DNA of 64,000 nucleotides from a virus (Duplodnaviria; Caudoviricetes): IMG/VR virus record IMGVR_UViG_3300043468_001158. One strand, written 5' to 3'. Positions within the stretch are counted from its first letter, which is position 1. Every line of letters begins with the position of its first letter. The translations under genes were made by a program, and so were the position numbers. Below the pieces are notes generated by a model. That model searched no databases. It worked only from the letters and a program-made list of their open reading frames with translations, and was not told the origin of the DNA. This document shows, piece by piece, positions 30,346-61,502 of this stretch.

Positions 30346-30942
30346 ATGAGCATATTACAAGAACTATTAGAACTTCGCCGTCAATCACTAACTGAAGAAG
30401 GCGAACAAGAACAACAGCAAGAAGGTGGGGATAAAGAGGATGCACCTAAAGATGAACATAAAAGCATGAAAGACCATCTTCAAGATATGTTCAAAGAAGC
30501 TGATGGTAATGGCAGTCTTCAACCTTATGTAAAGAATGAAACTTTACAAGCTAAGGAAGCAAATGTTGGAGAAGAAATCCATCAAAACTTTCCTGGTGTT
30601 CCGTCAAAGAACATTGTGACAAAAGAAGGTGACTTAGTTGTTCGTGATAGCGAAAATCCAAATGCAATGAAAGTTGTTCCAAAACACGAGTTTGAAGTTG
30701 AATACGAAATCGAAAAAAGCGATAGCAAACCAGATGCAGAAGGCTATACATCATATCGTTCAAAAGGGCAAATCTTAGCATTTCAATATAACGAACATGA
30801 ACCTCTTAGACTGCAAGATGAACATGGACATACCATTCACGTAAAGTTCGGTGACTATCTCGGCTATCCAACCGATGATGCTTCAACTCTAATCCAACTT
30901 GATAAGACTCATTTTGAACAAAACTATCGATTAGCGGACTAA
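30346..30942 (+). CDS. Late protein with two PGDYG-like modules; possible head protein
   Basis: Start re-called to MSILQELLELR (ATG 30346) after TAAATA at 30302-30307. Two repeats (KEGDLVVRD...FEVEYE; KFGDYLG...FEQNY). Confidence 0.5.
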   Translation: MSILQELLELRRQSLTEEGEQEQQQEGGDKEDAPKDEHKSMKDHLQDMFKEADGNGSLQPYVKNETLQAKEANVGEEIHQNFPGVPSKNIVTKEGDLVVRDSENPNAMKVVPKHEFEVEYEIEKSDSKPDAEGYTSYRSKGQILAFQYNEHEPLRLQDEHGHTIHVKFGDYLGYPTDDASTLIQLDKTHFEQNYRLAD

Positions 30943-30943
30943 T

Positions 30944-31483
30944 ATGCAAACAGAAACTATAACAATACCTATAAAGAAGAAGCGAATAAATTCCAAAAGT
31001 AAAGGTTCTTCAAATGAACTGAAGCTCTCAAAACTTTTAGCAGAACATTTGGCACCCCTTAAATTCGTAAGAACACAACAATCTGGTGCAATTACTGGCG
31101 GAAAGAACTTTGGGTTTAGAGGACATATGTTCTCTAAGCAAACACTTGAACATTATGTTGGTGATGTAGTGCCAAGTAATGAAGAAGAAGCAGGAGTAAA
31201 GTTTCGATTTGTGATTGAGACTAAAGCATACAAAACTCCTGATAGCTTTGAGTCCCTCTTTGTCGGAAAGCATAGTGTGTATGGTTGGCTTGATGAAGTT
31301 GATGTTGATAAAGTCAAGGTCAATAAAGAAGGAATTGTGATTATGAAATGGAACAACACCCCTTACTATGCCGCAGTAAGACCTCACATTGAACTCCCAT
31401 GCAAACATATGACTTTACCATCTGGCGATAAAGTCTGTCATTTGTTAGAGCTTCTAAAACATAACTCTTTTTGGATATTGTGA
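30944..31483 (+). CDS. Holliday-junction resolvase-like PD-(D/E)XK nuclease
   Basis: INSKSKGSSNELKL...RTQQSGA...GDV...VIETKAY motif set. Confidence 0.75.
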   Translation: MQTETITIPIKKKRINSKSKGSSNELKLSKLLAEHLAPLKFVRTQQSGAITGGKNFGFRGHMFSKQTLEHYVGDVVPSNEEEAGVKFRFVIETKAYKTPDSFESLFVGKHSVYGWLDEVDVDKVKVNKEGIVIMKWNNTPYYAAVRPHIELPCKHMTLPSGDKVCHLLELLKHNSFWIL

Positions 31484-31522
31484 TATAATATAACTTCAAT
31501 AATACTTTTAGGAAATACCCAT

Positions 31523-31807
31523 ATGAACTTAAAAACTGCAAAAGCATTAAGAAAAGCTGCTCGTGTTATGGCTGCTTCTAGTGGCATTGTCTTAGACAGA
31601 CAATTGGTTGAAAACGAAAGCCGTCGCAAGTATCACTTTGAACTATTGAAAGATATTGATGGTGGTCCAATTGTTGATAGCGAAACAGGTCGTCCAAAAT
31701 ACAATGCAACGTTTGTTGCTTATGGGCAAATGACCAACGAACCTGCTTCAGTTCGCGGCACTTACCGTTCGTTAAAACGTTCTTTCAAAAACACTCCTAA
31801 TCGCTAA
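31523..31807 (+). CDS. Hypothetical basic protein (94 aa)
   Basis: ORF with GGAA RBS; no recognisable motif. Confidence 0.6.
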   Translation: MNLKTAKALRKAARVMAASSGIVLDRQLVENESRRKYHFELLKDIDGGPIVDSETGRPKYNATFVAYGQMTNEPASVRGTYRSLKRSFKNTPNR

Positions 31808-32028
31808 TACACAGGGTTGTGTTTCTTAGCTTCCTGCTCTAATCTTTTATTGATAAAGTCGGAAGCAATGTCACGTTCACCCGCTGTCATTTGCAAAGTT
31901 GTATGATAATCCCATGCACCACGAGAATACCAAGATAGTTCTAAACAACTTTGAATGATTGATTTTATCTCTGCTCCGAGCTGGTCAATTAGTGCTTGAA
32001 TTCGTGCTAATTCACCTGAACGGAGCAT
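31804..32028 (-). CDS. Baseplate hub assembly protein, gp51-like
   Basis: 74 aa; LELSWYSRGAWDYHTTLQMTAGER; follows the gp26-like gene. Confidence 0.55.
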   Translation of the reverse strand: MLRSGELARIQALIDQLGAEIKSIIQSCLELSWYSRGAWDYHTTLQMTAGERDIASDFINKRLEQEAKKHNPVY

Positions 32029-32813
32029 TAGGAGAAAAAACTTATAGGGTTCAATGGAAGTTCAACATCAAATTTTTCACCACAATCACGACATACTAAA
32101 GTAGATGTCAAATCTAATCCCCAATTATTGATATCATCAAGATATCCTGCTATTCGGTCAATATGATTTGCTCCAGCAGATCTAATCCATTCGCTAATCA
32201 AATTTCTATCTTCAATTCCGTCAATACTCTGAATAACACTCATTAGGTTCATAAAGATATTGTTTTGAATATCCTCAACTGAGAGTTTTTCTTTGCCTTC
32301 GTTTGCTTGTAACACTTCAATAATTTTGTCATATCTAGCAGGTTGAAGTTTTACTATTTGTCCATTTTCTAATCTAACCACAAACTGATTTTCTAGAATA
32401 GTTGAGTCAAGATACTTTATTGTTGATAATACTTGTTCTAAATCAATAGTATATGTATGTTGTCTTCCGTTTTCGCAACGATGATTGGCAGTAATTTCAT
32501 AACTTGGTCCATAAGTCACTAATCTCAAGAATAGCATAATAGCATCAACATCTTTACCAAATAGTTCAGTTGGTTTTATAATTCCTTGAATACAATTTGA
32601 GAATACTGGGTCTAATGCTTTACCGGTAAATAACATATCAGGATTCTTGAGAACTACTTCATCAAATGCATTCATTGGCTGAATATGTAATTCTCCAGCA
32701 GTAATACTACTATCTAATTCCCCGTTCGAATATAGAAGACCTCTAGAAGGTAATTGAAGAACTCGGCCTGGAAGTTTTAATTTAGCGAGAAGTGGATTGT
32801 GTTCATTTAACAT
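32028..32813 (-). CDS. Baseplate hub assembly chaperone, gp26-like
   Basis: LQLPSRGLLY...IQPMNAFDEVVLKNPD...DVDAIMLFLRLVTYG, two Cys pairs (CENG; CRDCGE). Perfect TATAAATA late promoter on the minus strand near 32867. Confidence 0.7.
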   Translation of the reverse strand: MLNEHNPLLAKLKLPGRVLQLPSRGLLYSNGELDSSITAGELHIQPMNAFDEVVLKNPDMLFTGKALDPVFSNCIQGIIKPTELFGKDVDAIMLFLRLVTYGPSYEITANHRCENGRQHTYTIDLEQVLSTIKYLDSTILENQFVVRLENGQIVKLQPARYDKIIEVLQANEGKEKLSVEDIQNNIFMNLMSVIQSIDGIEDRNLISEWIRSAGANHIDRIAGYLDDINNWGLDLTSTLVCRDCGEKFDVELPLNPISFFS

Positions 32814-32935
32814 GATGTAAGAAACCTTATAATATAGAGTTATGATTATACAATAAATACTAAAACTATTTATACTTTGTAAATACCCACCATATACCCA
32901 ACATCACTGCAAAGCAAGAGAGAGAAATACAAATT

Positions 32936-35900
32936 ATGGCAAGAGCAGTTTCTGAAGCACAATTACGAGAAGAAACATACCAAATTCTTCTAAAGATAGA
33001 AAGAGCACTTAGTAATGGTAGTGCTTCAGTTGGTTCGGGTGGTGATAGAGGAAGTGACCGACGAGGAGCAGGAAGTGGGACTAACGATAGCGGAAGTAAT
33101 ACTCAAAGTGATGCTGCTCAACGACGTCGTGAAGCCCTACAGAACCGCACTACACAAGAGTTAGAACAAACTCTTGATAGTTTGATAAACTCTATTGAAG
33201 ACTTAAAGAATAGCGTTGAAGGACATGAAGAAAGGTTATCAGATGATAGAAGACAACTTCTTGCTGACCAACGCGAAGAAGCTCAAATAGCACGTGAAAT
33301 CATTCTTGAAGCTAGACGTGGGGAAATAGAACAATCAGAAATTATCCAAAATAGTTCGAGAAGATTAGGTCGAGCTTTATCAAGTTTGACCGAACCTGTT
33401 CGTGCAAACTGGAATGCTTTTGAAGACTATAACTTGAGCATGAACAAATCCATTTCCGCTCAGTCTTCAATGTTAGCTGGAATGGTCGAAGGTTCAAGTC
33501 TTCAAAATGCGGCATATGATAAGTATATTACTAAGCTACTTGATGCAAGTGATACACTATCAAGCTTTACTAATTTAGGTCGAGAGTTGTCTTCGGTTCA
33601 AGATTTGTCTGAAGCAATTGATGAACTGAATAAAGATGGTAAAGTATTTGAAGCATTACTGAAAGAGCACGGAAATCAAACATCGGAATACATTGAAAGT
33701 CTATACGAGCTTGAACAAGCTACTGGTAATTTAACAGACCATCAACGAGAGATTCTGGAAATTGCAAGAAAAACTAATATGATGGATGAACATGGACGAG
33801 TTCAAAATGTTCAGGCTATTCGAAATCATACAAATCAAATCAAAGCTGATATGATAAAAATGCAAGAGATTGCAGTCAAGCATATGACTATTGCTAAAAT
33901 GACACAATCGTTCCATGATAAGTTTGGAAAATACGCTAGCGCATTATTTGGAGGCAAAGGCCCATTTGGGTTATTTGCTTTAGGTGTTATGATGCTTGGC
34001 GATAGCATTGTCAAAGTCTATGACCAGTTTACTAAAGCTGCTGATATTGGTATGCTTGGCGCAAATGATTACTTAGGAAGTTTTGCAAGACTCAAAGAAG
34101 CACAAGTTCAGTTAGGTATTAGTTTTGAAGAAACTGCTAAAATCTTCCAAGAGAACCGAAGAATGGCTTATAGCGTTGGTGATAATGTTGGTGATTTTGC
34201 AGATGCCTTAGATGAAGGTCAAAAGAGTTTGATTTTGTTAGGCATGGGTAATGAAGATGCTGCTAAGACTGCGGTTGATTTTGCAAAGAATGCAACTAAA
34301 GCAGGTATTGACATCACAAGTAATGATAAAGTAAGAAAGGCTATGAAGACTCAAACGGAAGCATATGGCCGATTGAAAGTATTGACAGGTGCTTCAGCTT
34401 CAGAGTTCAAAGCTCTTAATGATGAGCTTTTTGACGCTCAATCTGTTCAAGAGCAATTGAATGGTATAGGTCGAGACGAGCGAGAAGTAAGAATGAATGC
34501 GATGTTCAAATTACGTGAAGACTTCGTCAAGTTAGGACTTTCAGCTCAATCCGCTAATAAAGCACTTATCTCTATTCAGGATTTAGGCAAAGAAAAGTTA
34601 GCAGACAGATTTACCCAAGCAGCAAAGTTCCAACAATTAGCAGGTGTTCTTGGAATGAAGAATGCAGCTCAACTTGGTCAAATAGTTCGTAAAGGTGATA
34701 GAGCTACAGCTGATGAGAAGAAAGAACTAATGGAAGCTGCGGTTGAAATGCAAAAACGCGCTGATGTTAGAAGACGCGGAAGTTATGGCGATGAGAACAT
34801 TATCCAGTCTTTAGTTGGTGGTTTATCAGGACCGTTACTTGCTATGATGGAACAAGGACGAGAAGCTTCTAAAACAACCGATGCTTTAGGCAAGTTTGCT
34901 GAGAAAGCTTTTGGTCGTCAAACCGTTGATGGAGATATCAAGATACCGCCTTGGGCAGCAACATTGATTGACATTGGACATAGTATTGAGACTGTTATCA
35001 CTGACCCGATTGTAAAAGCTATTGGTGGAATTGCTCTTGCTGCTGGTGGCTTGCTTCTGCTTTTTAGAGCCGGAGGTTCAGTTATTGAAACTTTCAGAAG
35101 CATGAAAAATTCGTTGTTCAATATTGACAAGAACACTGGTAGTATGTCATCATCGACAGGTGATGATAGTAGTGGTGGAACCGCACAAGAAAGAGCTGAA
35201 CGACGTAGAAGAGAAGAAAGTCAAAGAAGAAGACGAGGTGGGGTTAGAAATAGAACGACACCTGCAAGACCAAGAGCTGGAAATGTTAGCCGATTAGCTG
35301 GGGCGTTGAAGCCAACAGGTTTTGGAGTTGGTGCATTAGCTTCAGGTTTAGCGGCTAATGCTATTATTGACAATCAAACTAACCCGGAAACTGGCGAAGT
35401 ATCAACTGGCGGAAAATTGGCTGCAATGGCATCAGGCGCGATGTCCGGTGCATCATTGGGAATGCTATCTGGTAACCCGTTAGTCGGTTTAGCAGGTGGA
35501 GTGATTGGCGCAGGTGTTGGTTTATATGGTGCATCGGGAGGAGGAGAAGGTTCAAGTGATGCGTCTCCAACATCTGGTATATCAAGTTCATATCCGGTAG
35601 GAACGAATCCCCCATCAATCTATAGTCCACAACCATCTGCGTCAACAGCTTCTAGAGTAACCCCAATAGGTGGTTCAACTGCTGGAACATCAAGTTCAAG
35701 TAGTTCAAACGAAGCTGATGCTCCAGTTATTAGGCTGTCAAAAGATACTATCGCTAAACTTGGTAATTATCTAACAACTTTGAATGACACACAAACTAAG
35801 TCACTAAATATAGAACAAGACCAGCTTGATATGCTTGCCGCATTAGTGACAGCAAGTGATGAAGCTTATAAGAATGCAAAAAGTCTCAAACCAATTCCAG

Positions 35901-35950
35901 GTCATTCATCATTATTTGGCAGAGGTGGTCGTTATGAATATATCAACTAA
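32936..35950 (+). CDS. Tape-measure-like protein (1004 aa)
   Basis: Long helical/coiled-coil protein with Gly-rich hydrophobic segments; divergent from the gp26-like gene and upstream of the portal; TAAATA at 32880-32885. Confidence 0.6.
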   Translation: MARAVSEAQLREETYQILLKIERALSNGSASVGSGGDRGSDRRGAGSGTNDSGSNTQSDAAQRRREALQNRTTQELEQTLDSLINSIEDLKNSVEGHEERLSDDRRQLLADQREEAQIAREIILEARRGEIEQSEIIQNSSRRLGRALSSLTEPVRANWNAFEDYNLSMNKSISAQSSMLAGMVEGSSLQNAAYDKYITKLLDASDTLSSFTNLGRELSSVQDLSEAIDELNKDGKVFEALLKEHGNQTSEYIESLYELEQATGNLTDHQREILEIARKTNMMDEHGRVQNVQAIRNHTNQIKADMIKMQEIAVKHMTIAKMTQSFHDKFGKYASALFGGKGPFGLFALGVMMLGDSIVKVYDQFTKAADIGMLGANDYLGSFARLKEAQVQLGISFEETAKIFQENRRMAYSVGDNVGDFADALDEGQKSLILLGMGNEDAAKTAVDFAKNATKAGIDITSNDKVRKAMKTQTEAYGRLKVLTGASASEFKALNDELFDAQSVQEQLNGIGRDEREVRMNAMFKLREDFVKLGLSAQSANKALISIQDLGKEKLADRFTQAAKFQQLAGVLGMKNAAQLGQIVRKGDRATADEKKELMEAAVEMQKRADVRRRGSYGDENIIQSLVGGLSGPLLAMMEQGREASKTTDALGKFAEKAFGRQTVDGDIKIPPWAATLIDIGHSIETVITDPIVKAIGGIALAAGGLLLLFRAGGSVIETFRSMKNSLFNIDKNTGSMSSSTGDDSSGGTAQERAERRRREESQRRRRGGVRNRTTPARPRAGNVSRLAGALKPTGFGVGALASGLAANAIIDNQTNPETGEVSTGGKLAAMASGAMSGASLGMLSGNPLVGLAGGVIGAGVGLYGASGGGEGSSDASPTSGISSSYPVGTNPPSIYSPQPSASTASRVTPIGGSTAGTSSSSSSNEADAPVIRLSKDTIAKLGNYLTTLNDTQTKSLNIEQDQLDMLAALVTASDEAYKNAKSLKPIPGHSSLFGRGGRYEYIN

Positions 35951-35963
35951 TACGGAATACTAA

Positions 35964-37688
35964 ATGGCAACTTTACAAAGTTACTTCAGAATAATCACTC
36001 CAGTATCGAGTCAGAAGCAATATACTCAATTGCATGCTGACTCGACTAATATGAATGGACCTAACGGGTTCTCAAACGCTGCATCGTCTGTTGCTTTTCT
36101 AACTCAAGTAATGAAAGGCGCTGGAACTCGTATGCAACGATACATTCAGTATGATAGCATGGATAATGATATTGACATCTCTCGTGCTCTTGATATTATC
36201 GCTGAAGAAATATCAAATGACGACGAAACCACCAATCTTCCATTCGAAATAGAGTATCAAACTGAAGATGACCAGGAAGTATCGGAAAATACCGTTACTA
36301 CTATTCGTGCGGCTCTTAGACAATGGTCTCGCGTTCAAGACTTTAGCAATCGCATCTTCCGCATTGGTCGCATTATGTCAAAGTATGGCGACTGCTTCTT
36401 CAAGAAGTCGGCTGATACTAAAAAGTGGGAATACCTTGACCCATCTAAAGTATTGGGTATCTATCTTGACGAAAATGGTGACCGAGTTGCATACCAACTA
36501 AAAGGCGATGGTGGTGGAATGGTTGGATATGCAGGTAAGGTGACTGATGTAGAGGTCGTACCTGCTGCAGGGATTATCCACTTTACCCTGTCTGATGACA
36601 TGGGTGAAAGTGCTCCATTCGGCGAAAGTGTTCTTCAACCAATCTTTAGAACCTTCAAACAGCTTTCAATGTTAGAAGACTCTGTCATCATCTACCGTCT
36701 TGTTAGGGCACCTGAACGTCGAGTCTTCTATGTTGACGTTGGTAATATGCCTCAACAACGTGTTAAGCAATATCTTGAGAACATCAAGAATGAGATACGT
36801 CAAAAGAGAATGCCTAACACAACCAACAATCAAGACGTCATCGACGGAACTTATAATCCTAACAGTATCTCTGAAGACTATTACTTTCCAGTGACTGCCT
36901 CAGGTCGTTCTTCTCGTGTAGAAGTATTGCCAGGTGGCGAAAACTTGGGTGAATTGAATGAGTTGAAATACTTCCGTGAAAAGCTTTACAAAGGCTTACG
37001 TGTTCCAACCTCTTACTTAGGTGGAGCAGATGCACAACCTCAACAATACAATGACGGTAAGTTAGGTGTTGCACTTCTTGACGAGTTACGATTTGCCAAC
37101 TACATCCGTCGATTACAGAACAAGATTGAATGTGTGATGGACGAACAGTTCAAACTCTATCTCAAAACGATTGGTATCAATGTCGAAGATTGGTTATTCC
37201 TTCTTAGATTACCTGAACCACAAAACTTTGGTATCTACCGTCAAAATGCTCTTGACTCAGACTTAATCAATGCATTCAAATCGATTGAAGATGTCAAACA
37301 GTTGTCAATGAGATGGAAACTAAAACGTTACTTAGGCTTAACTGAAGATGACTTGCAAATGAATGAGAAAATGCTCAAACAAGAACTTGAGATTGATGAA
37401 GATGCTAATGTTTCTGATTTACGTCAAATCTATGACCCAGTTCAAATGGAAGCTAGACAAGCCGCGAAAATCAAACCTAAACATATCGAGTCAGATGAAG
37501 CTCCGGCTGGTGGAGGCGGAGGCGGAGATGAGTTAGGTATGGACATGGGAGGAGGAAGCCCTCCTCCAGGTGATGATTTAGGTGGTGGTCTTGGTGGTGA
37601 TTTAGGTGGTGGTCTTGGTGGTGGAGCTGACGACATGGGACTTGGAGCACCAGGAGCCGGTGGTGGCATGGACAATTTAGGTCTATAA
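35964..37688 (+). CDS. gp20: Portal protein gp20
   Basis: LSMLEDSVIIYRLVRAPERRVFYVDVGNMP, EDYYFP, VEVLPGGENLGE, LRVPTSYL; Gly/Asp-rich C-terminal tail. Confidence 0.95.
   Translation: MATLQSYFRIITPVSSQKQYTQLHADSTNMNGPNGFSNAASSVAFLTQVMKGAGTRMQRYIQYDSMDNDIDISRALDIIAEEISNDDETTNLPFEIEYQTEDDQEVSENTVTTIRAALRQWSRVQDFSNRIFRIGRIMSKYGDCFFKKSADTKKWEYLDPSKVLGIYLDENGDRVAYQLKGDGGGMVGYAGKVTDVEVVPAAGIIHFTLSDDMGESAPFGESVLQPIFRTFKQLSMLEDSVIIYRLVRAPERRVFYVDVGNMPQQRVKQYLENIKNEIRQKRMPNTTNNQDVIDGTYNPNSISEDYYFPVTASGRSSRVEVLPGGENLGELNELKYFREKLYKGLRVPTSYLGGADAQPQQYNDGKLGVALLDELRFANYIRRLQNKIECVMDEQFKLYLKTIGINVEDWLFLLRLPEPQNFGIYRQNALDSDLINAFKSIEDVKQLSMRWKLKRYLGLTEDDLQMNEKMLKQELEIDEDANVSDLRQIYDPVQMEARQAAKIKPKHIESDEAPAGGGGGGDELGMDMGGGSPPPGDDLGGGLGGDLGGGLGGGADDMGLGAPGAGGGMDNLGL
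37575..37622 (+). repeat. 24-bp tandem duplication in the portal C-terminal tail
   Basis: GATTTAGGTGGTGGTCTTGGTGGT x2, encoding DLGGGLGG. Confidence 0.9.
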
Positions 37689-37753
37689 AAATCAAAGATT
37701 ATCCTAAATAGATAATCACTTAAAAATCTACAAATACATGGAGAGACAATATC

Positions 37754-38374
37754 ATGTCACAACAAATATTACTTACTGAAGACCTAACTCCTGATCAAGC
37801 TAACTTAATTGAAAGCATTGATGATGGCAAAAACTATTATCTTTCTGGCATTATGATGCAAGCAGGCGTTATCAATGGAAATGGCCGCGAGTATCAATTA
37901 GCAGAAATGTTGAAAGTTGTTGAAGAAAACTCTAAAAAGATTGCAAGCGGTCAGCTAATCATGGGTGAGCTGACCCACCCTAACAATATCGCTATCAACC
38001 TTGCCAACGTATCTCATGCTATTACTGAAATGAGAATGGATGGTTCAAACGTAGTTGGTAAAATGAAACTTTTGAATACTCCATCTGGTCAAATTGCAAA
38101 AGCGATTCTTGAAGGTGGTGTTAGACTTGGTGTTTCTTCTCGTGGTACAGGTTCAGTCGGTGCTGACGGTAAAGTATCTGGCTTTAGCTTTGTGACTGTT
38201 GATATCGTTGATAATCCTTCAGCTCCTGATGCTCGCCCTAACCTTGTTCGTGAAAGCTTAGAAAATCAAAAGATAGTAACCTTAGCTGAAATTGTGGTAG
38301 AAGACAAAAGTGCTCAAAAGCATTTAGAAAAAGAAATCAAAAAATTCTTACTATCAATAGTTACAAAAAAATAA
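37754..38374 (+). CDS. gp21: Prohead protease gp21
   Basis: NGNGREY, GELTHP, GVSSRGTGS, TVDIVDNPSAPDA. TAAATA at 37705-37710. Confidence 0.95.
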   Translation: MSQQILLTEDLTPDQANLIESIDDGKNYYLSGIMMQAGVINGNGREYQLAEMLKVVEENSKKIASGQLIMGELTHPNNIAINLANVSHAITEMRMDGSNVVGKMKLLNTPSGQIAKAILEGGVRLGVSSRGTGSVGADGKVSGFSFVTVDIVDNPSAPDARPNLVRESLENQKIVTLAEIVVEDKSAQKHLEKEIKKFLLSIVTKK

Positions 38375-38395
38375 AGAACCAGGGAGAAAATAAAA

Positions 38396-38872
38396 ATGAA
38401 ACCAGAAAAATCAATGAAAGAATTGTTTGAAATTGCTGGTATTAAAGATATTGATAAAGCTCTATCTTTGATTACCGAAGTTAATCTACGAGAAGTCGAC
38501 CTTACTACAAAACAAATTGCCGATAAAATAAGTGCAGCATTTGAAAAAGATTTTGGTTCGCTTAGAACCAGCGAAACTGAAAACCTGTCGAATAAAATGT
38601 ATAAGCTAATTGTAGATAAAGATTTTCTTGATGGAAAAACACCTGTTGCTAGATTTAGAATACCAGTTATTACAAAAGCAAATGATTTGCATAACATTCA
38701 CAATTCTTATGAAGCATTTAACAAAATACTAGATAAGTTCTACAATTCTTTACGTAATGAAGGATATCTTATAACTCAACCAAAAGGCGGGTATATTAAG
38801 GGTGATACTTGGGAAGGCAATGGAACAGTTGGAAATATCATGACATTTTTTGTAGCAGGAAAACCGGAGTAA
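38396..38872 (+). CDS. Paralog array member 1 (putative internal head protein)
   Basis: N-terminus MKPEKSMKELFEIAGIKDIDKALSLITE shared with 38879 and 41124. Confidence 0.65.
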   Translation: MKPEKSMKELFEIAGIKDIDKALSLITEVNLREVDLTTKQIADKISAAFEKDFGSLRTSETENLSNKMYKLIVDKDFLDGKTPVARFRIPVITKANDLHNIHNSYEAFNKILDKFYNSLRNEGYLITQPKGGYIKGDTWEGNGTVGNIMTFFVAGKPE

Positions 38873-56249: not shown

Positions 56250-56432
56250 ATGACTGCTACGTCAGAGCAATTAGGTATCGATGATGCTCAACGTCATCGA
56301 TATCAACTTCTGATAAAAGCAGAAATACTAACAGAGAATGGTGAATATCATCCAAGATGGTTTTCACAAGAAACAATAGAACGAGATAAACAACATAGAA
56401 ATCAAACTCAGAAGAGGAATAACGAAAGATGA
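56250..56432 (+). CDS. Hypothetical protein (60 aa)
   Basis: ATGA overlap with the next gene. Confidence 0.55.
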   Translation: MTATSEQLGIDDAQRHRYQLLIKAEILTENGEYHPRWFSQETIERDKQHRNQTQKRNNER

Positions 56433-56875
56433 CTTCATTACTACAACAAATCAAAGACCGTTCGCTTGAAGCTCGCAAGGCTAAAGCGCCTGAAGCAGTG
56501 TATCTAACAACTTTGTTAGGCGAAGCTTCTCGTCCTGGTAAAGACGATGGCAGTCGTGAAAGTACTGACGAAGAAGTACTGAAAGTTTTGACTAAGTTCA
56601 AGACCGGTGCTCTTGAAATGCTTGATGTCTTCGAACGAGTTGAAGATGTTAATAAGATTATCGTGACCGAACGCGAACTTGCAATCTTGGACAGTTATCT
56701 GCCAAAGCAAATGTCAAACATCGAGCTTGAAAACATCATTGCCAAGTTTGTCGTTGATGCAGATAAGACACCATCAATTGGTATGATTATGGCATACTTG
56801 AAGTCTAACTATGCTGGTCAGTATGATGGTAAAGCTGCTTCAGTATTTGCTAAGTCTGCGATTGAGGAACTGTAG
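56429..56875 (+). CDS. GatB/YqeY-domain protein
   Basis: LEARKAK...LTTLLGE...DEEV...ELAILDSYLPKQMS...GMIMAYLK...YDGK. Confidence 0.85.
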   Translation: MTSLLQQIKDRSLEARKAKAPEAVYLTTLLGEASRPGKDDGSRESTDEEVLKVLTKFKTGALEMLDVFERVEDVNKIIVTERELAILDSYLPKQMSNIELENIIAKFVVDADKTPSIGMIMAYLKSNYAGQYDGKAASVFAKSAIEEL

Positions 56876-56887
56876 GAAATGTAGGAA

Positions 56888-57088
56888 ATGAAAATCAATC
56901 TCCAATTATTTCTTATCGTACTTCTGTTGTTTAGCATTATGCCATTGCTAAAATACTTAGACATTTCTAGACAAACCTCAGAAAATGTGATACAATGCAT
57001 TGGAGATTACAGCTTTTCGCAAGACTTTCTGGATTTTTGGCGACCATATGAAGACGAAAATCCAGAACATATCAGATGTAATGACTGA
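56888..57088 (+). CDS. Small membrane-anchored protein (66 aa)
   Basis: N-terminal TM LFLIVLLLFSIMPLL; stop codon overlaps the 5-prime end of the tRNA-like RNA. Confidence 0.55.
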   Translation: MKINLQLFLIVLLLFSIMPLLKYLDISRQTSENVIQCIGDYSFSQDFLDFWRPYEDENPEHIRCND

Positions 57089-57207
57089 ATAGCTTAATCG
57101 GCAGAGCATCTCAGCTAGGGCAGGGGGTTAGGTTCGATTCCTAACAGATAAGTGGCGCCTGTAAGTCCGCATGAGGTAGGTAGTGGGTTCGAACCCCCTT
57201 TCAGTCA
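57083..57207 (+). ncRNA. tRNA-like RNA whose anticodon loop is replaced by a 58-nt domain with a second T-arm
   Basis: GACTGAA/TTCAGTC acceptor stem; D-arm GCTT-AATCGGCA-GAGC; stem TCTCA/TGAGG; T-loop TTCGAAC; insert contains GTTAGG-TTCGATT-CCTAAC; no encoded CCA. Confidence 0.8.
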
Positions 57208-61393: not shown

Positions 61394-61502
61394 TGATAAA
61401 CCGAAAGTCGTGGGTTCGAATCCCATTTCCACCTCCACTTGGTATTGAATAGCTCGTCAGTATCAAGTGGGGTGGAGTAACTCAGTGGTTAGAGTGTCGG
61501 TC
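61394..61502 (+). ncRNA. Circularly permuted tRNA-like module 2 (rejoined halves read as a tRNA with GAU anticodon)
   Basis: 3-prime half TGATAA-ACCGA-AAGTC-GTGGG-TTCGAAT-CCCAT-TTCCACC-T-CCA precedes 5-prime half GGTGGAG-TA-ACTC-AGTGGTTA-GAGT-G-TCGGT-C. Confidence 0.88.

What the first reader, a model, noticed from the sequence alone, without database searches (positions are those of the whole stretch)
57083..57207. Two-headed tRNA: a second T-arm and D-like loop replace the anticodon
Seen: in an otherwise complete tRNA frame, the anticodon stem is extended (GC..GGGC/GTCC.GC) into a junction. The junction carries a perfect T-arm GTTAGG-TTCGATT-CCTAAC and then a hairpin ACAG-ATAAGTGGCGC-CTGT whose loop has a D-loop-like AGTGG. 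The T-then-D order matches the permuted modules at 61 kb. It lies ~200 nt after a YqeY tRNA-binding-domain gene. Inference: a dimeric elbow mimic with no decoding capacity.
Basis: partly seen in the sequence, partly recalled or inferred. Interest (0 to 1): 0.8.

Follow-up and report, generated by a model that had tools for sequence, protein, structure and literature searches.

The report
Homologue of phage T5 tRNA-like RNA2
This 125-base gene is a real, conserved phage RNA with a complete tRNA body whose anticodon loop is replaced by a second, miniature tRNA "elbow". It is a distant relative of RNA2 of phage T5, a tRNA-like stable RNA annotated with unknown function.

Summary
Window 57083-57207 (+) is a full tRNA frame (Rfam tRNA, 35.3 bits). 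A 58-nt insert replaces the anticodon loop and contains a second perfect T-arm.

The element belongs to a phage-restricted RNA family. I found about 20 distinct members in IMG/VR and 247 cultured-phage records, mostly T5-like phages of Escherichia, Salmonella and Klebsiella. A covariance model built without the window's clade scores the window at 79.9 bits; ordinary tRNAs in the same search score 35 or less.

The phage T5 member is the annotated misc_RNA rna2: "RNA2, tRNA-like stable RNA with unknown functions".

All six helices covary. The insert is the most conserved part: GGGY, a short helix, the T-arm, a D-loop-like A-R-N-N-GG strand, GUAA, RUCC and GCA.

No single excision rule gives a canonical anticodon loop across members, so an intron reading is unlikely.

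Ro60 is absent from 3 of 3 near-complete member genomes. YqeY is no more frequent with the element than without it.

Best reading: a non-decoding, tRNA-scaffolded RNA that displays an acceptor-less elbow mimic; its partner is unknown.

This scan flagged the same family earlier on other DNA (e1-5378893).

The parts
57083..57207 (+). Whole tRNA-like RNA gene, a homologue of phage T5 RNA2
   Evidence: Rfam tRNA 35.3 bits, model 1-71. Family model R1 97.2 bits. Model R2, built without this clade, 79.9 bits, E 5.6e-17.
57083..57089 (+). Acceptor stem 5' strand (GACTGAA). It pairs with 57200-57206 (TTCAGTC); the discriminator is A57207.
   Evidence: All 7 pairs change on both sides across the family. 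C3-G70 becomes U-A in L026/L001.
57092..57107 (+). Outer D-arm (GCTT-AATCGGCA-GAGC) with G18 G19
   Evidence: cmscan alignment. 2 of 4 pairs covary.
57109..57113 (+). Anticodon-stem 5' strand (TCTCA). It pairs with 57172-57176 (TGAGG).
   Evidence: 5 of 5 pairs covary and 95% of cells are paired. L026 and L001 differ in the element only here, at 9 positions that keep the pairing.
57114..57117 (+). 5' side of an internal loop (GCTA; family consensus N-C-K-W), opposite the invariant GCA at 57169-57171
   Evidence: Family alignment A4.
57118..57121 (+). Helix P1 5' strand (GGGC). It pairs with 57165-57168 (GTCC).
   Evidence: G-C and G-C are invariant and the G.U is present in 15 of 16. The fourth pair is C-G (5), U-A (5) or U.U (6), and C is always opposite G.
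57122..57125 (+). Short helix P2 5' strand (AGG or GGG). It pairs with CCT at 57158-57160.
   Evidence: A helix of 3 bp or more sits at this place in 12 of 15 lineages, against 42% of cross-lineage pairings; permutation p = 0.002. The register is ambiguous.
57127..57145 (+). Inner T-arm (GTTAGG-TTCGATT-CCTAAC)
   Evidence: 3 of 5 stem pairs covary and G53-C61 and G52-C62 are invariant. Loop positions 59-60 are UU in 17 of 20 members, whereas the outer T-loops vary.
57146..57157 (+). Unpaired D-loop-like strand (AGATAAGTGGCG) with the conserved GG
   Evidence: GG is invariant, within an A-R-N-N-G-G(-U) consensus that resembles the D-loop consensus in the Rfam tRNA and YrlA models.
57161..57164 (+). 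Invariant GUAA bulge between P2 and P1
   Evidence: Invariant in all 16 and all 20 aligned members.
57183..57199 (+). Outer T-arm (GTGGG-TTCGAAC-CCCCT; one U.C mismatch)
   Evidence: cmscan alignment. 3 of 5 pairs covary.
56888..57088 (+). 66-aa small membrane-type ORF whose stop codon (57086-57088) lies inside the RNA's acceptor stem
   Evidence: ORF list. A 64%-identical homologue sits in the same place in L026/L001. An analogous ORF overlaps the element in L161.
56429..56875 (+). YqeY-domain gene upstream. It is context only and is not shown to be a partner.
   Evidence: Pfam PF09424, E 9.8e-16. Association tests are negative.

Best explanation
The element is a gene for a stable, non-decoding tRNA-like RNA of the phage T5 RNA2 family.

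Shown: the outer part is an ordinary tRNA body (acceptor, D and T arms, and a 5-bp anticodon stem). Its sequence drifts freely as long as pairing is kept.

Inferred: this body acts as a scaffold. It lets host RNase P, 3' trimming enzymes and the CCA-adding enzyme cut the RNA out of a polycistronic transcript and keep it stable, in the way engineered tRNA scaffolds work.

Shown: the anticodon loop is replaced by a module conserved in sequence. In order it holds helix P1 (GGGY/RUCC, with a fixed G.U), an invariant GUAA bulge, a short helix P2, a T-arm, and a D-loop-like strand ending in GG.

Inferred: this has the strand order of a circularly permuted tRNA core without an acceptor stem. It would fold into a second small elbow at the tip of a lengthened anticodon arm, where it would bind or sequester a factor that recognises tRNA elbows. 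Because the same sequence is kept in phages of very different hosts, that factor is probably a conserved bacterial one, or a widespread phage tRNA-binding protein.

The partner and the benefit to the phage are unknown.
For: Real and conserved:
- Full tRNA match with a 58-nt insert.
- The orthologue in a phage whose flanking proteins are 64-77% identical keeps every helix through compensatory changes.
- In a MAFFT alignment of 16 members, 89.6% of cells are paired against 61.6% in shuffles. The covariation score is 0.724 against 0.197 or less when the partners are slid. All six helices have covarying pairs.

Family:
- Members score 64-107 bits and ordinary tRNAs 51 or less.
- A model built without the window's clade gives the window 79.9 bits.
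- T5 rna2, annotated "tRNA-like stable RNA with unknown functions", scores 95.7 bits although it was not in the seed.
- There are 247 cultured-phage records, one copy per record in 5 of 5 records, and only 1 true hit in one genome each of 185,579 prokaryote species.

Not a decoder:
- The nucleotides on the 5' side of the module vary (CGA, AUA, CUU, CUA) while the 3' side is a fixed GCA. Every excision rule I tried gives C33 or a pyrimidine at 37.
- The insert is the best conserved part of the RNA.
- Discriminator bases and acceptor stems are not conserved.

Elbow-mimic reading:
- The inner T-loop is canonical, with extra conservation at positions 59-60.
- The GG strand resembles a D-loop.
- P2 is supported at p = 0.002.
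Against: - No direct evidence that this window's RNA is made as a 125-nt species. Four metatranscriptome runs from one study hold the region only as long unspliced contigs, which cannot show ends and may include DNA.
- The experimental basis of the T5 "stable RNA" annotation could not be read in the paper library.
- Thermodynamic folding alone prefers pairing the two T-arms with each other (z-score only -1.5).
- The three-dimensional elbow, T-loop/GG docking and any binding partner are all inferred.
- P2 is short and its register is ambiguous.
- The viable T5Mos deletion 30661-38625 spans rna2 (32959-33083), if the paper uses the RefSeq coordinates. That would make the RNA dispensable on laboratory E. 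coli (PMC11464382).
Confidence: 0.6

Rival explanations
1. It is an interrupted but functional tRNA gene. The roughly 50-nt insert is an intron that is cut out and the halves religated, giving a decoding tRNA (ARAGORN proposes Gly-UCC).
For:
- Devoto et al. 2019 reported "enigmatic introns" in Lak megaphage tRNAs, one of which "may encode a tRNA" (PMC6784885).
- Earlier notes of this scan, which I did not check, say this phage encodes RNA ligase-like enzymes.
Against: - The ARAGORN solution needs a G.A closing pair and a shifted stem. For the near-identical L001 it gives a different isotype (Ile-tat) with different splice points.
- The CU it relies on is CG, AU or AA in other members.
- No excision rule gives U33 plus a purine at 37 across the family.
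- There is no bulge-helix-bulge motif (my reading of the sequence), and the insert is far too short for a group I intron.
- The insert is more conserved than the supposed exons.
- T5 annotates the full 125-nt RNA as the stable species.
- Only the unspliced form appears in RNA contigs, which is weak evidence.
- No insert-less orthologue was found.
Confidence: 0.08
2. It is a Y-RNA-type partner of the phage's Ro60 protein, and the insert is the Ro60 docking or effector module.
For: - The module has the T-then-D order of the YrlA tRNA-like domain (Chen et al. 2014, PMC4201824).
- The syntenic relative's record (G001, L161) encodes a TROVE protein.
- Earlier notes place Ro60 elsewhere in this phage and suggest a Ro module in similar RNAs. 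I did not check those notes.
Against: - TROVE is found in 1 of 5 member records and in 0 of 3 that are at least 96% complete, including the T5-like phage Sugarland.
- The Rfam YrlA model does not match the element even at E 10.
- The element sits in tRNA arrays, not beside Ro60.
Confidence: 0.07
3. It is the dedicated RNA ligand of the YqeY-domain protein encoded 208 nt upstream. That protein would be a tRNA-elbow binder, as the homologous tail domain of GatB is.
For: - The same-strand adjacency (about 210 nt) is seen in the window, in L001/L026 and in L161.
- From my own knowledge: the GatB tail (YqeY) domain contacts the D-loop corner of tRNA.
- T5.081, annotated "tRNA amidotransferase" at the edge of the T5 tRNA region, is a weak YqeY relative (BLASTP E 3e-6).
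Against: - L161 is syntenic with the window (6 shared flanking genes), so its adjacency is not independent evidence.
- Elsewhere the two genes lie 11-21 kb apart, or Pfam YqeY is absent.
- YqeY is equally common in tRNA-rich phages that lack the element (3 of 5).
Confidence: 0.1
4. It acts mainly in cis. It would be a tRNA-shaped processing or stability signal that punctuates the polycistronic transcript, and the insert would only tune that processing.
For: - It lies between ORFs with no terminator nearby.
- The stop codon of the upstream 66-aa ORF lies inside the acceptor stem here, and in L161 the stop of an analogous ORF overlaps the element's 5' end. RNase P cleavage would therefore cut that mRNA.
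Against: - In most members it sits in tRNA arrays, not after that ORF.
- A simple processing signal would not need an invariant 45-nt module kept across unrelated phages.
- T5 annotates it as an RNA that accumulates.
Confidence: 0.08

Closest known systems
Phage T5 RNA2 (misc_RNA rna2, T5s06; NC_005859 32959-33083, minus strand), annotated 'tRNA-like stable RNA with unknown functions'
   Same: Same family. It has the tRNA body, 5-bp anticodon stem, GGGC, short helix, inner T-arm, AAUGG strand, GUAA, GUCC and GCA. It scores 95.7 bits with a model that did not contain it. The window scores 79.9 bits with a model that contains T5 RNA2 but not the window's clade.
   Different: The host phage differs: T5 is a roughly 120-kb siphovirus of E. 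coli, while the window is an uncultured freshwater phage with SbcCD-like, portal and major-head genes. The scaffold sequence is unrelated in detail. The genomic setting also differs: the window's gene follows a small ORF and a YqeY gene, whereas T5 RNA2 lies in a tRNA/stable-RNA array next to RNAIV.
YrlA-type bacterial and phage Y RNAs (Rfam RF02553; Chen et al. 2014, PMC4201824)
   Same: They hold a permuted tRNA-like domain in which the T-arm precedes the D-arm, closed by a stem that stands in for the anticodon stem. In Chen et al. 2014, YrlA carries tRNA-type modifications and is a substrate for enzymes that recognise tRNAs.
   Different: Here the acceptor-like hairpin and the D-stem 5' strand are missing. 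The closing stem leads into a complete second tRNA body, not into a Ro60-binding stem. The GNCGAA motif is absent (my reading of the sequence). The YrlA model does not match. Ro60 is absent from most member genomes.
Phage T4 species 1 RNA (rnaC) and species 2 RNA (rnaD)
   Same: They are small stable RNAs of unknown function encoded in a phage tRNA cluster. rnaC has a tRNA-like acceptor stem and T-arm.
   Different: They are not the same family. The Rfam tRNA model does not match them at E 1. The family model gives rnaC 19 bits, from the acceptor and T-arm only, with an unrelated interior.
'Enigmatic introns' in Lak megaphage tRNAs (Devoto et al. 2019, PMC6784885)
   Same: These are phage tRNA genes with conserved inserts in the anticodon region, one of which looks like a tRNA itself.
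   Different: Those inserts were read as introns because alleles exist with and without them. Here no insert-less allele was found, and no excision rule restores a canonical loop. I did not test sequence relatedness.
Engineered tRNA scaffolds for recombinant RNA (Ponchon and Dardel 2007; cited from memory)
   Same: A foreign structured RNA replaces the anticodon loop of a tRNA, and the chimera is processed and accumulates stably in E. coli. This is the mechanism I infer for the scaffold.
   Different: They are man-made. This resemblance is a lead, not a test.

Membership tests
Phage T5 RNA2-type tRNA-like RNA | Complete tRNA frame (acceptor stem, D-arm with GG, 5-bp anticodon stem, T-arm) | tested here: met
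   Rfam tRNA 35.3 bits, model 1-71. The helices covary.
Phage T5 RNA2-type tRNA-like RNA | Anticodon loop replaced by the module GGGY - short helix - T-arm - ...GG - GUAA - RUCC - GCA | tested here: met
   The window has GGGC, AGG/CCT, GTTAGG-TTCGATT-CCTAAC, AAGTGG, GTAA, GTCC and GCA, aligned column by column with T5 RNA2 and 18 other members.
Phage T5 RNA2-type tRNA-like RNA | Scores with a family covariance model well above ordinary tRNAs, using a model that does not contain it | tested here: met
   Model R2 was built from 18 members without the window, L001, L026 or L161. It gives the window 79.9 bits (E 5.6e-17); the next hits in the same search are 35 bits or less.
Phage T5 RNA2-type tRNA-like RNA | Accumulates as a stable full-length RNA in infected cells | not testable with these tools
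   Only the T5 record's annotation says so. For the window, only unspliced RNA-library contigs are available.
Canonical decoding tRNA (Rfam RF00005), possibly with an intron | A 7-nt anticodon loop with U33 and a purine at 37, present or restorable by a consistent excision | tested here: not met
   58 nt stand in place of the loop. No excision rule works across 20 members. ARAGORN's solutions are inconsistent between near-identical copies.
YrlA / Y RNA (RF02553) | Match to the family model; a stem bearing the Ro60-binding motif; Ro60 gene in the genome | tested here: not met
   No YrlA hit on the element at E 10. TROVE is in 1 of 5 member records and 0 of 3 near-complete ones.
Archaeal/eukaryal-type tRNA intron | Bulge-helix-bulge motif (two 3-nt bulges on opposite strands, 4 bp apart) at the splice sites | tested here: not met
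   The observed geometry is a 4 x 3-nt internal loop, then a 4-bp helix, then a 0-1 x 4-nt loop. This is my reading of the alignment; no dedicated BHB search tool was run.

The most novel reading that the evidence does not exclude
The conserved insert is an acceptor-less tRNA elbow. The RNA would then be a rigid two-elbow molecule that phages of very different hosts use to trap or bridge a universal bacterial factor that reads tRNA elbows. Candidates are a tRNA-processing or tRNA-modifying enzyme, or a tRNA-directed defence nuclease. On this reading, T5 RNA2 and its relatives would be a widespread class of phage tRNA decoys.
Probability: 0.25. Interest if true: 0.75.

Novelty: new member of a known kind. 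Interest (0 to 1): 0.5.

Why it matters
T5 RNA2 is annotated in the T5 record as a stable RNA of unknown function. It has no Rfam model, and most deposited genomes I saw leave it unannotated ("none" under the match in the listed records).

This window shows that the RNA is not peculiar to T5-like phages. The same module sits in a freshwater phage with T4-type head genes, in a 363-kb phage and in other large phages, always as a single copy. That conservation argues for a common target.

T5 is genetically tractable and deletion strains covering the gene already exist, so the function can now be tested directly.

There is also a practical point for annotation. Default tRNA finders and Rfam's fast filters miss or misname such genes, or call them intron-bearing tRNAs.

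Tried and rejected
- Single-sequence and three-sequence folding pair the two near-palindromic T-arms with each other. I rejected this because the cloverleaf-type structure has 21 of 30 pairs changed on both sides, against 3 of 39 for that fold.
- The INPHARED search with 2.3 kb of the window found nothing useful. The family in cultured phages only surfaced with a different member as the query.
- DNA patterns built on ATAAGTGG were too narrow. They returned only the same two lineages plus chance hits (L018, L039).
- A homologue search with the upstream 66-aa ORF found only two protein clusters.
- Laying four metatranscriptome runs gave one unbroken contig per run, with no joints and no ends at the element. 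This says nothing about processing or splicing, and binding is untested.
- Ro60 partnership was tested and not supported.
- A YqeY-specific link was tested and not supported. Pfam does not detect YqeY in T5.081, although BLASTP shows a weak relation.
- No conserved neighbouring protein family was found across lineages.
- T4 rnaC/rnaD as relatives: rejected.
- The alternative "double cloverleaf" fold proposed for another member (ACCC/GGGT and GAAT/ATTC, note e1-5378893): those pairings are not possible in the window or in most members.
- Levitt-pair-type covariation between the D-like strand and the nucleotide before the inner T-stem was looked at by eye and was inconclusive.
- The literature search found no paper in the library that describes T5 RNA2 itself.

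Full report
**1. What is in the sequence**

Window 57083-57207 (+) reads as a tRNA from end to end. It has a 7-bp acceptor stem, U8 A9, a D-arm with GG, A26, a 5-bp anticodon stem, a 6-nt variable loop, a T-arm and discriminator A.

Rfam's tRNA model matches it full length (model 1-71) at 35.3 bits against a gathering score of 29. Fifty-eight nucleotides stand where the 7-nt anticodon loop should be. ARAGORN in default mode does not report it.

The insert contains a perfect 6-bp T-arm with the loop TTCGATT (57127-57145). The motif GGTTCRANNCC occurs 9 times in the window against 0.35 expected. Seven of those are + strand sites inside tRNA-like elements between 57 and 62 kb.

A YqeY-domain gene (Pfam E 1e-15) ends 208 nt upstream. 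A 66-aa ORF fills the gap between the two, and its stop codon lies inside the acceptor stem.

**2. Close relatives**

The neighbouring YqeY protein led to IMG/VR contig L001 (77% protein identity). L001 carries a 124-nt orthologue of the element.

The upstream 66-aa ORF has only two protein clusters in 5.8 billion sequences. Their contigs give three variants of the element.

Between the window and the other two variants, compensatory changes keep four helices:
- the acceptor stem: C-G becomes U-A
- the inner T-stem: GUUAGG/CCUAAC becomes GAUGGG/CCCAUC
- the extension: GGGC/GUCC becomes GGGU/AUCC
- the outer T-stem.

All three variants have different, fully paired anticodon stems.

L026 and L001 are about 95% identical in this region. 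Within the element they differ at 9 positions. All 9 lie in or next to the anticodon stem, and they keep its pairing.

**3. The wider family**

A scan of IMG/VR for two T-loops 28-56 nt apart turned up a distant look-alike, L132, with the same GUAA-N-UCCGCA motif. A pattern joining the inner T-loop to that motif then recovered about 20 distinct tRNA-framed members, among chance hits.

I tested my proposed structure on a MAFFT alignment of 16 members that had not been fitted to any structure:
- 89.6% of cells form standard pairs, against 61.6% in shuffles.
- The covariation score is 0.724, against 0.197 or less when the partners are slid by 1-3 columns.
- All six helices contain pairs that change on both sides.

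A covariance model built from this alignment (R1) separates members (64-107 bits) from the hundreds of ordinary tRNAs in the same loci (51 bits or less).

To avoid circularity I built a second model (R2) from 18 members, leaving out the window, L001, L026 and L161. R2 gives the window 79.9 bits (E 5.6e-17). The next hits in that search score 35 bits or less.

**4. The family includes a named RNA of phage T5**

One IMG/VR member, L198, is identical to a stretch of Klebsiella phage Sugarland. By blastn it matches 247 cultured-phage records: Salmonella 103, Escherichia 64, Klebsiella 51 and others. In the records listed there is no annotation under the match.

In the T5 RefSeq record, model R1 hits 32963-33081 on the minus strand at 95.7 bits. 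This lies inside misc_RNA rna2 (T5s06), "RNA2, tRNA-like stable RNA with unknown functions", 32959-33083.

T5 RNA2 has every part of the module. The window element is therefore a distant homologue of T5 RNA2.

The annotated T5 RNA is 125 nt long, so the insert is counted as part of the stable species. I could not read the primary papers behind that annotation.

A viable T5 strain, T5Mos, carries the deletion 30661-38625 (PMC11464382). If the paper uses the RefSeq coordinates, this deletion removes rna2. The RNA would then be dispensable on laboratory E. coli.

**5. Anatomy of the insert**

The order of parts, from alignment A4 of 20 members, is:
- the anticodon stem (5 bp)
- an internal loop: N-C-K-W on the 5' side, an invariant GCA on the 3' side
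- helix P1, GGGY/RUCC: two G-C pairs, a nearly fixed G.U, and a fourth pair that is C-G, U-A or U.U, with C always opposite G
- 0-1 nt on the 5' side, opposite an invariant GUAA
- a short helix P2
- the T-arm
- a 7-15-nt unpaired strand that ends in GG, often GGU, just before the 3' strand of P2.

P2 examples are GAG/CUC, AUG/CAU, GGA/UCC, AUU/AAU, GAGA/UCUC and GGC/GCC. P2 is at least 3 bp in 12 of 15 lineages, against 42% of cross-lineage pairings (permutation p = 0.002). Its register is ambiguous.

In the T-arm, G53-C61 and G52-C62 are invariant. Loop positions 59-60 are UU in 17 of 20 members. The outer T-loops of the same RNAs vary freely at those positions.

The unpaired strand (for example AAUAUGGU, or AAGUGG in the window) resembles the D-loop consensus seen in the Rfam tRNA and YrlA models.

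The strand order matches a circularly permuted tRNA core, as in YrlA, with the acceptor hairpin and the D-stem 5' strand removed:
- P1 stands in for an anticodon stem.
- The 5' strand of P2 stands in for the variable-loop strand.
- The 3' strand of P2 stands in for the D-stem 3' strand.

That this folds into a real elbow is inference.

**6. Is it a tRNA with an intron?**

That call needs a G.A closing pair. For the near-identical L001 it returns a different isotype and different splice points.

Across the family, the two nucleotides the call relies on (CU) are CG, AU or AA. I tried every combination of k nucleotides from the 5' side and 7-k from the 3' side. Each puts C at position 33 or a pyrimidine at 37.

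Other points against an intron:
- There is no bulge-helix-bulge geometry.
- The insert is far too short for a group I intron.
- The insert is more conserved than the supposed exons.
- No insert-less allele turned up.
- RNA-library contigs show only the unspliced form, but contigs cannot exclude a rare spliced form.

The closest precedent in print is the "enigmatic introns" of Lak megaphage tRNAs, one of which "may encode a tRNA" (PMC6784885). I rate the intron reading at about 0.08.

**7. Candidate partners tested**

Ro60: a TROVE gene is present in 1 of 5 member records. It is absent from all 3 that are at least 96% complete, including the T5-like phage. The one positive record is the syntenic relative of the window's phage. 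Ro60 is therefore not a general partner.

YqeY: Pfam finds it in 4 of 10 member records and in 3 of 5 large tRNA-rich control records that lack the element. The close YqeY-to-element adjacency recurs only in L161 (G001: 102657-103073 and 103286-103405). L161 shares six flanking genes with the window, so its adjacency is not independent.

T5.081, annotated "tRNA amidotransferase" at the edge of the T5 tRNA region, is not detected by Pfam. It does align weakly with the window's YqeY protein (BLASTP E 3e-6). YqeY-like proteins therefore look like general companions of phage tRNA regions, not specific partners of this RNA.

No protein family recurs next to the element across lineages.

Distribution: there is one copy per record in 5 of 5 records. 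In one genome each of 185,579 prokaryote species, only one true member was found, on a 167-kb contig binned as "bacterium".

**8. Most likely mechanism**

Shown:
- It is a conserved, single-copy, phage-restricted RNA gene.
- It has a tRNA body under purely structural selection.
- It has a sequence-conserved module in place of the anticodon loop.

Inferred:
- The body secures processing and stability.
- The module is the working part. It presents a second, acceptor-less elbow at the end of a longer anticodon arm.
- Its target is a factor common to many bacteria, or to tRNA-rich phages.

I put 0.6 on this reading as a whole. Individually, I put about 0.9 on "real RNA of the RNA2 family", about 0.8 on "not a decoder", and about 0.35 on the elbow-decoy mechanism.

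**9. Comparison with known systems, and novelty**

It is a member of the T5 RNA2 kind. It works like a natural tRNA-scaffolded RNA, and it resembles the YrlA tRNA-like domain in strand order. It fails the YrlA membership tests.

T4 rnaC shares only an acceptor stem and a T-arm with the family, rnaD gave no significant match, and both have unrelated interiors.

What appears to be new here:
- the breadth of the family beyond T5-like phages
- a covariation-supported structure of the module
- the negative tests for Ro60 and YqeY.

The function remains unknown.

A further note (e1-4037503) may describe the same kind.

Noticed in passing
window:61659-61793 (+): A second tRNA frame with a 68-nt AU-rich insert in place of the anticodon loop. 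Rfam tRNA gives 45.3 bits in the sensitive search, but the default gathering run missed it. The insert is unrelated to the RNA2 module (34-36 bits with the family models, the level of an ordinary tRNA).
   Followed up: partly
window:61195-61259 and 61402-61499 (+): Two permuted tRNA-like modules (T-arm, then a capping hairpin, then a D-arm). The second gives a weak YrlA match (25 bits against a gathering score of 69) and the first a weak tmRNA-type match. Earlier notes of this scan cover them.
   Followed up: no
window:56888-57088 (+); L026:6001-6204; L161:3502-3709: A small membrane-type ORF (66-69 aa) ends inside or at the first bases of the tRNA-like RNA in three diverged relatives. RNase P cleavage at the RNA's 5' end would therefore remove the ORF's stop codon from its mRNA.
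   Followed up: partly
window:56968-56996 (+): A sigma-70-like promoter candidate with an extended -10 (TAGACA, 17 nt, TG-n-TACAAT; 10 of 12 matches). It lies inside the 66-aa ORF, about 87 nt before the RNA. The -10 stretch GAAAATGTGATACAATG is identical in L001, but it also encodes conserved residues.
   Followed up: partly
L358 (phage T5 NC_005859, 26000-42000): The T5 record annotates seven further stable or tRNA-like RNAs of unknown function in its tRNA region: RNA1, RNA3, RNAI, RNAIII, RNAIV, RNA2H and RNAX. RNAIV lies 18 nt downstream of RNA2. None was examined here.
   Followed up: no
L359:118-552 (-) (T5.081): The T5 gene annotated 'tRNA amidotransferase' has no Pfam hit at E 0.01. 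It aligns with the window's YqeY protein over residues 90-141 (BLASTP E 3e-6), so it is probably a divergent YqeY-like protein.
   Followed up: partly
L041:4857-4977, L100:1680-1787, L135:593-692, L139:4219-4336, L149:7940-8044: Other phage tRNA frames whose anticodon region holds a T-loop-bearing insert of a different type (38-46 bits with R1, so not this family). One encodes CCA, and one has a GNRA-capped hairpin. Such tRNA bodies with varied inserts look common in phage tRNA arrays.
   Followed up: no
L233:8614-8734 (-), L258:2994-3111 (+): In two members the acceptor helix can extend to 9-10 bp through pairing of leader and trailer (GUG...CAC). This would be unusual for an RNase P substrate.
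   Followed up: no
L175:7640-7745 (-): A family member that seems to lack the outer D-arm: 6 nt lie between the acceptor and anticodon stems. It keeps the whole insert module (65.6 bits).
   Followed up: no
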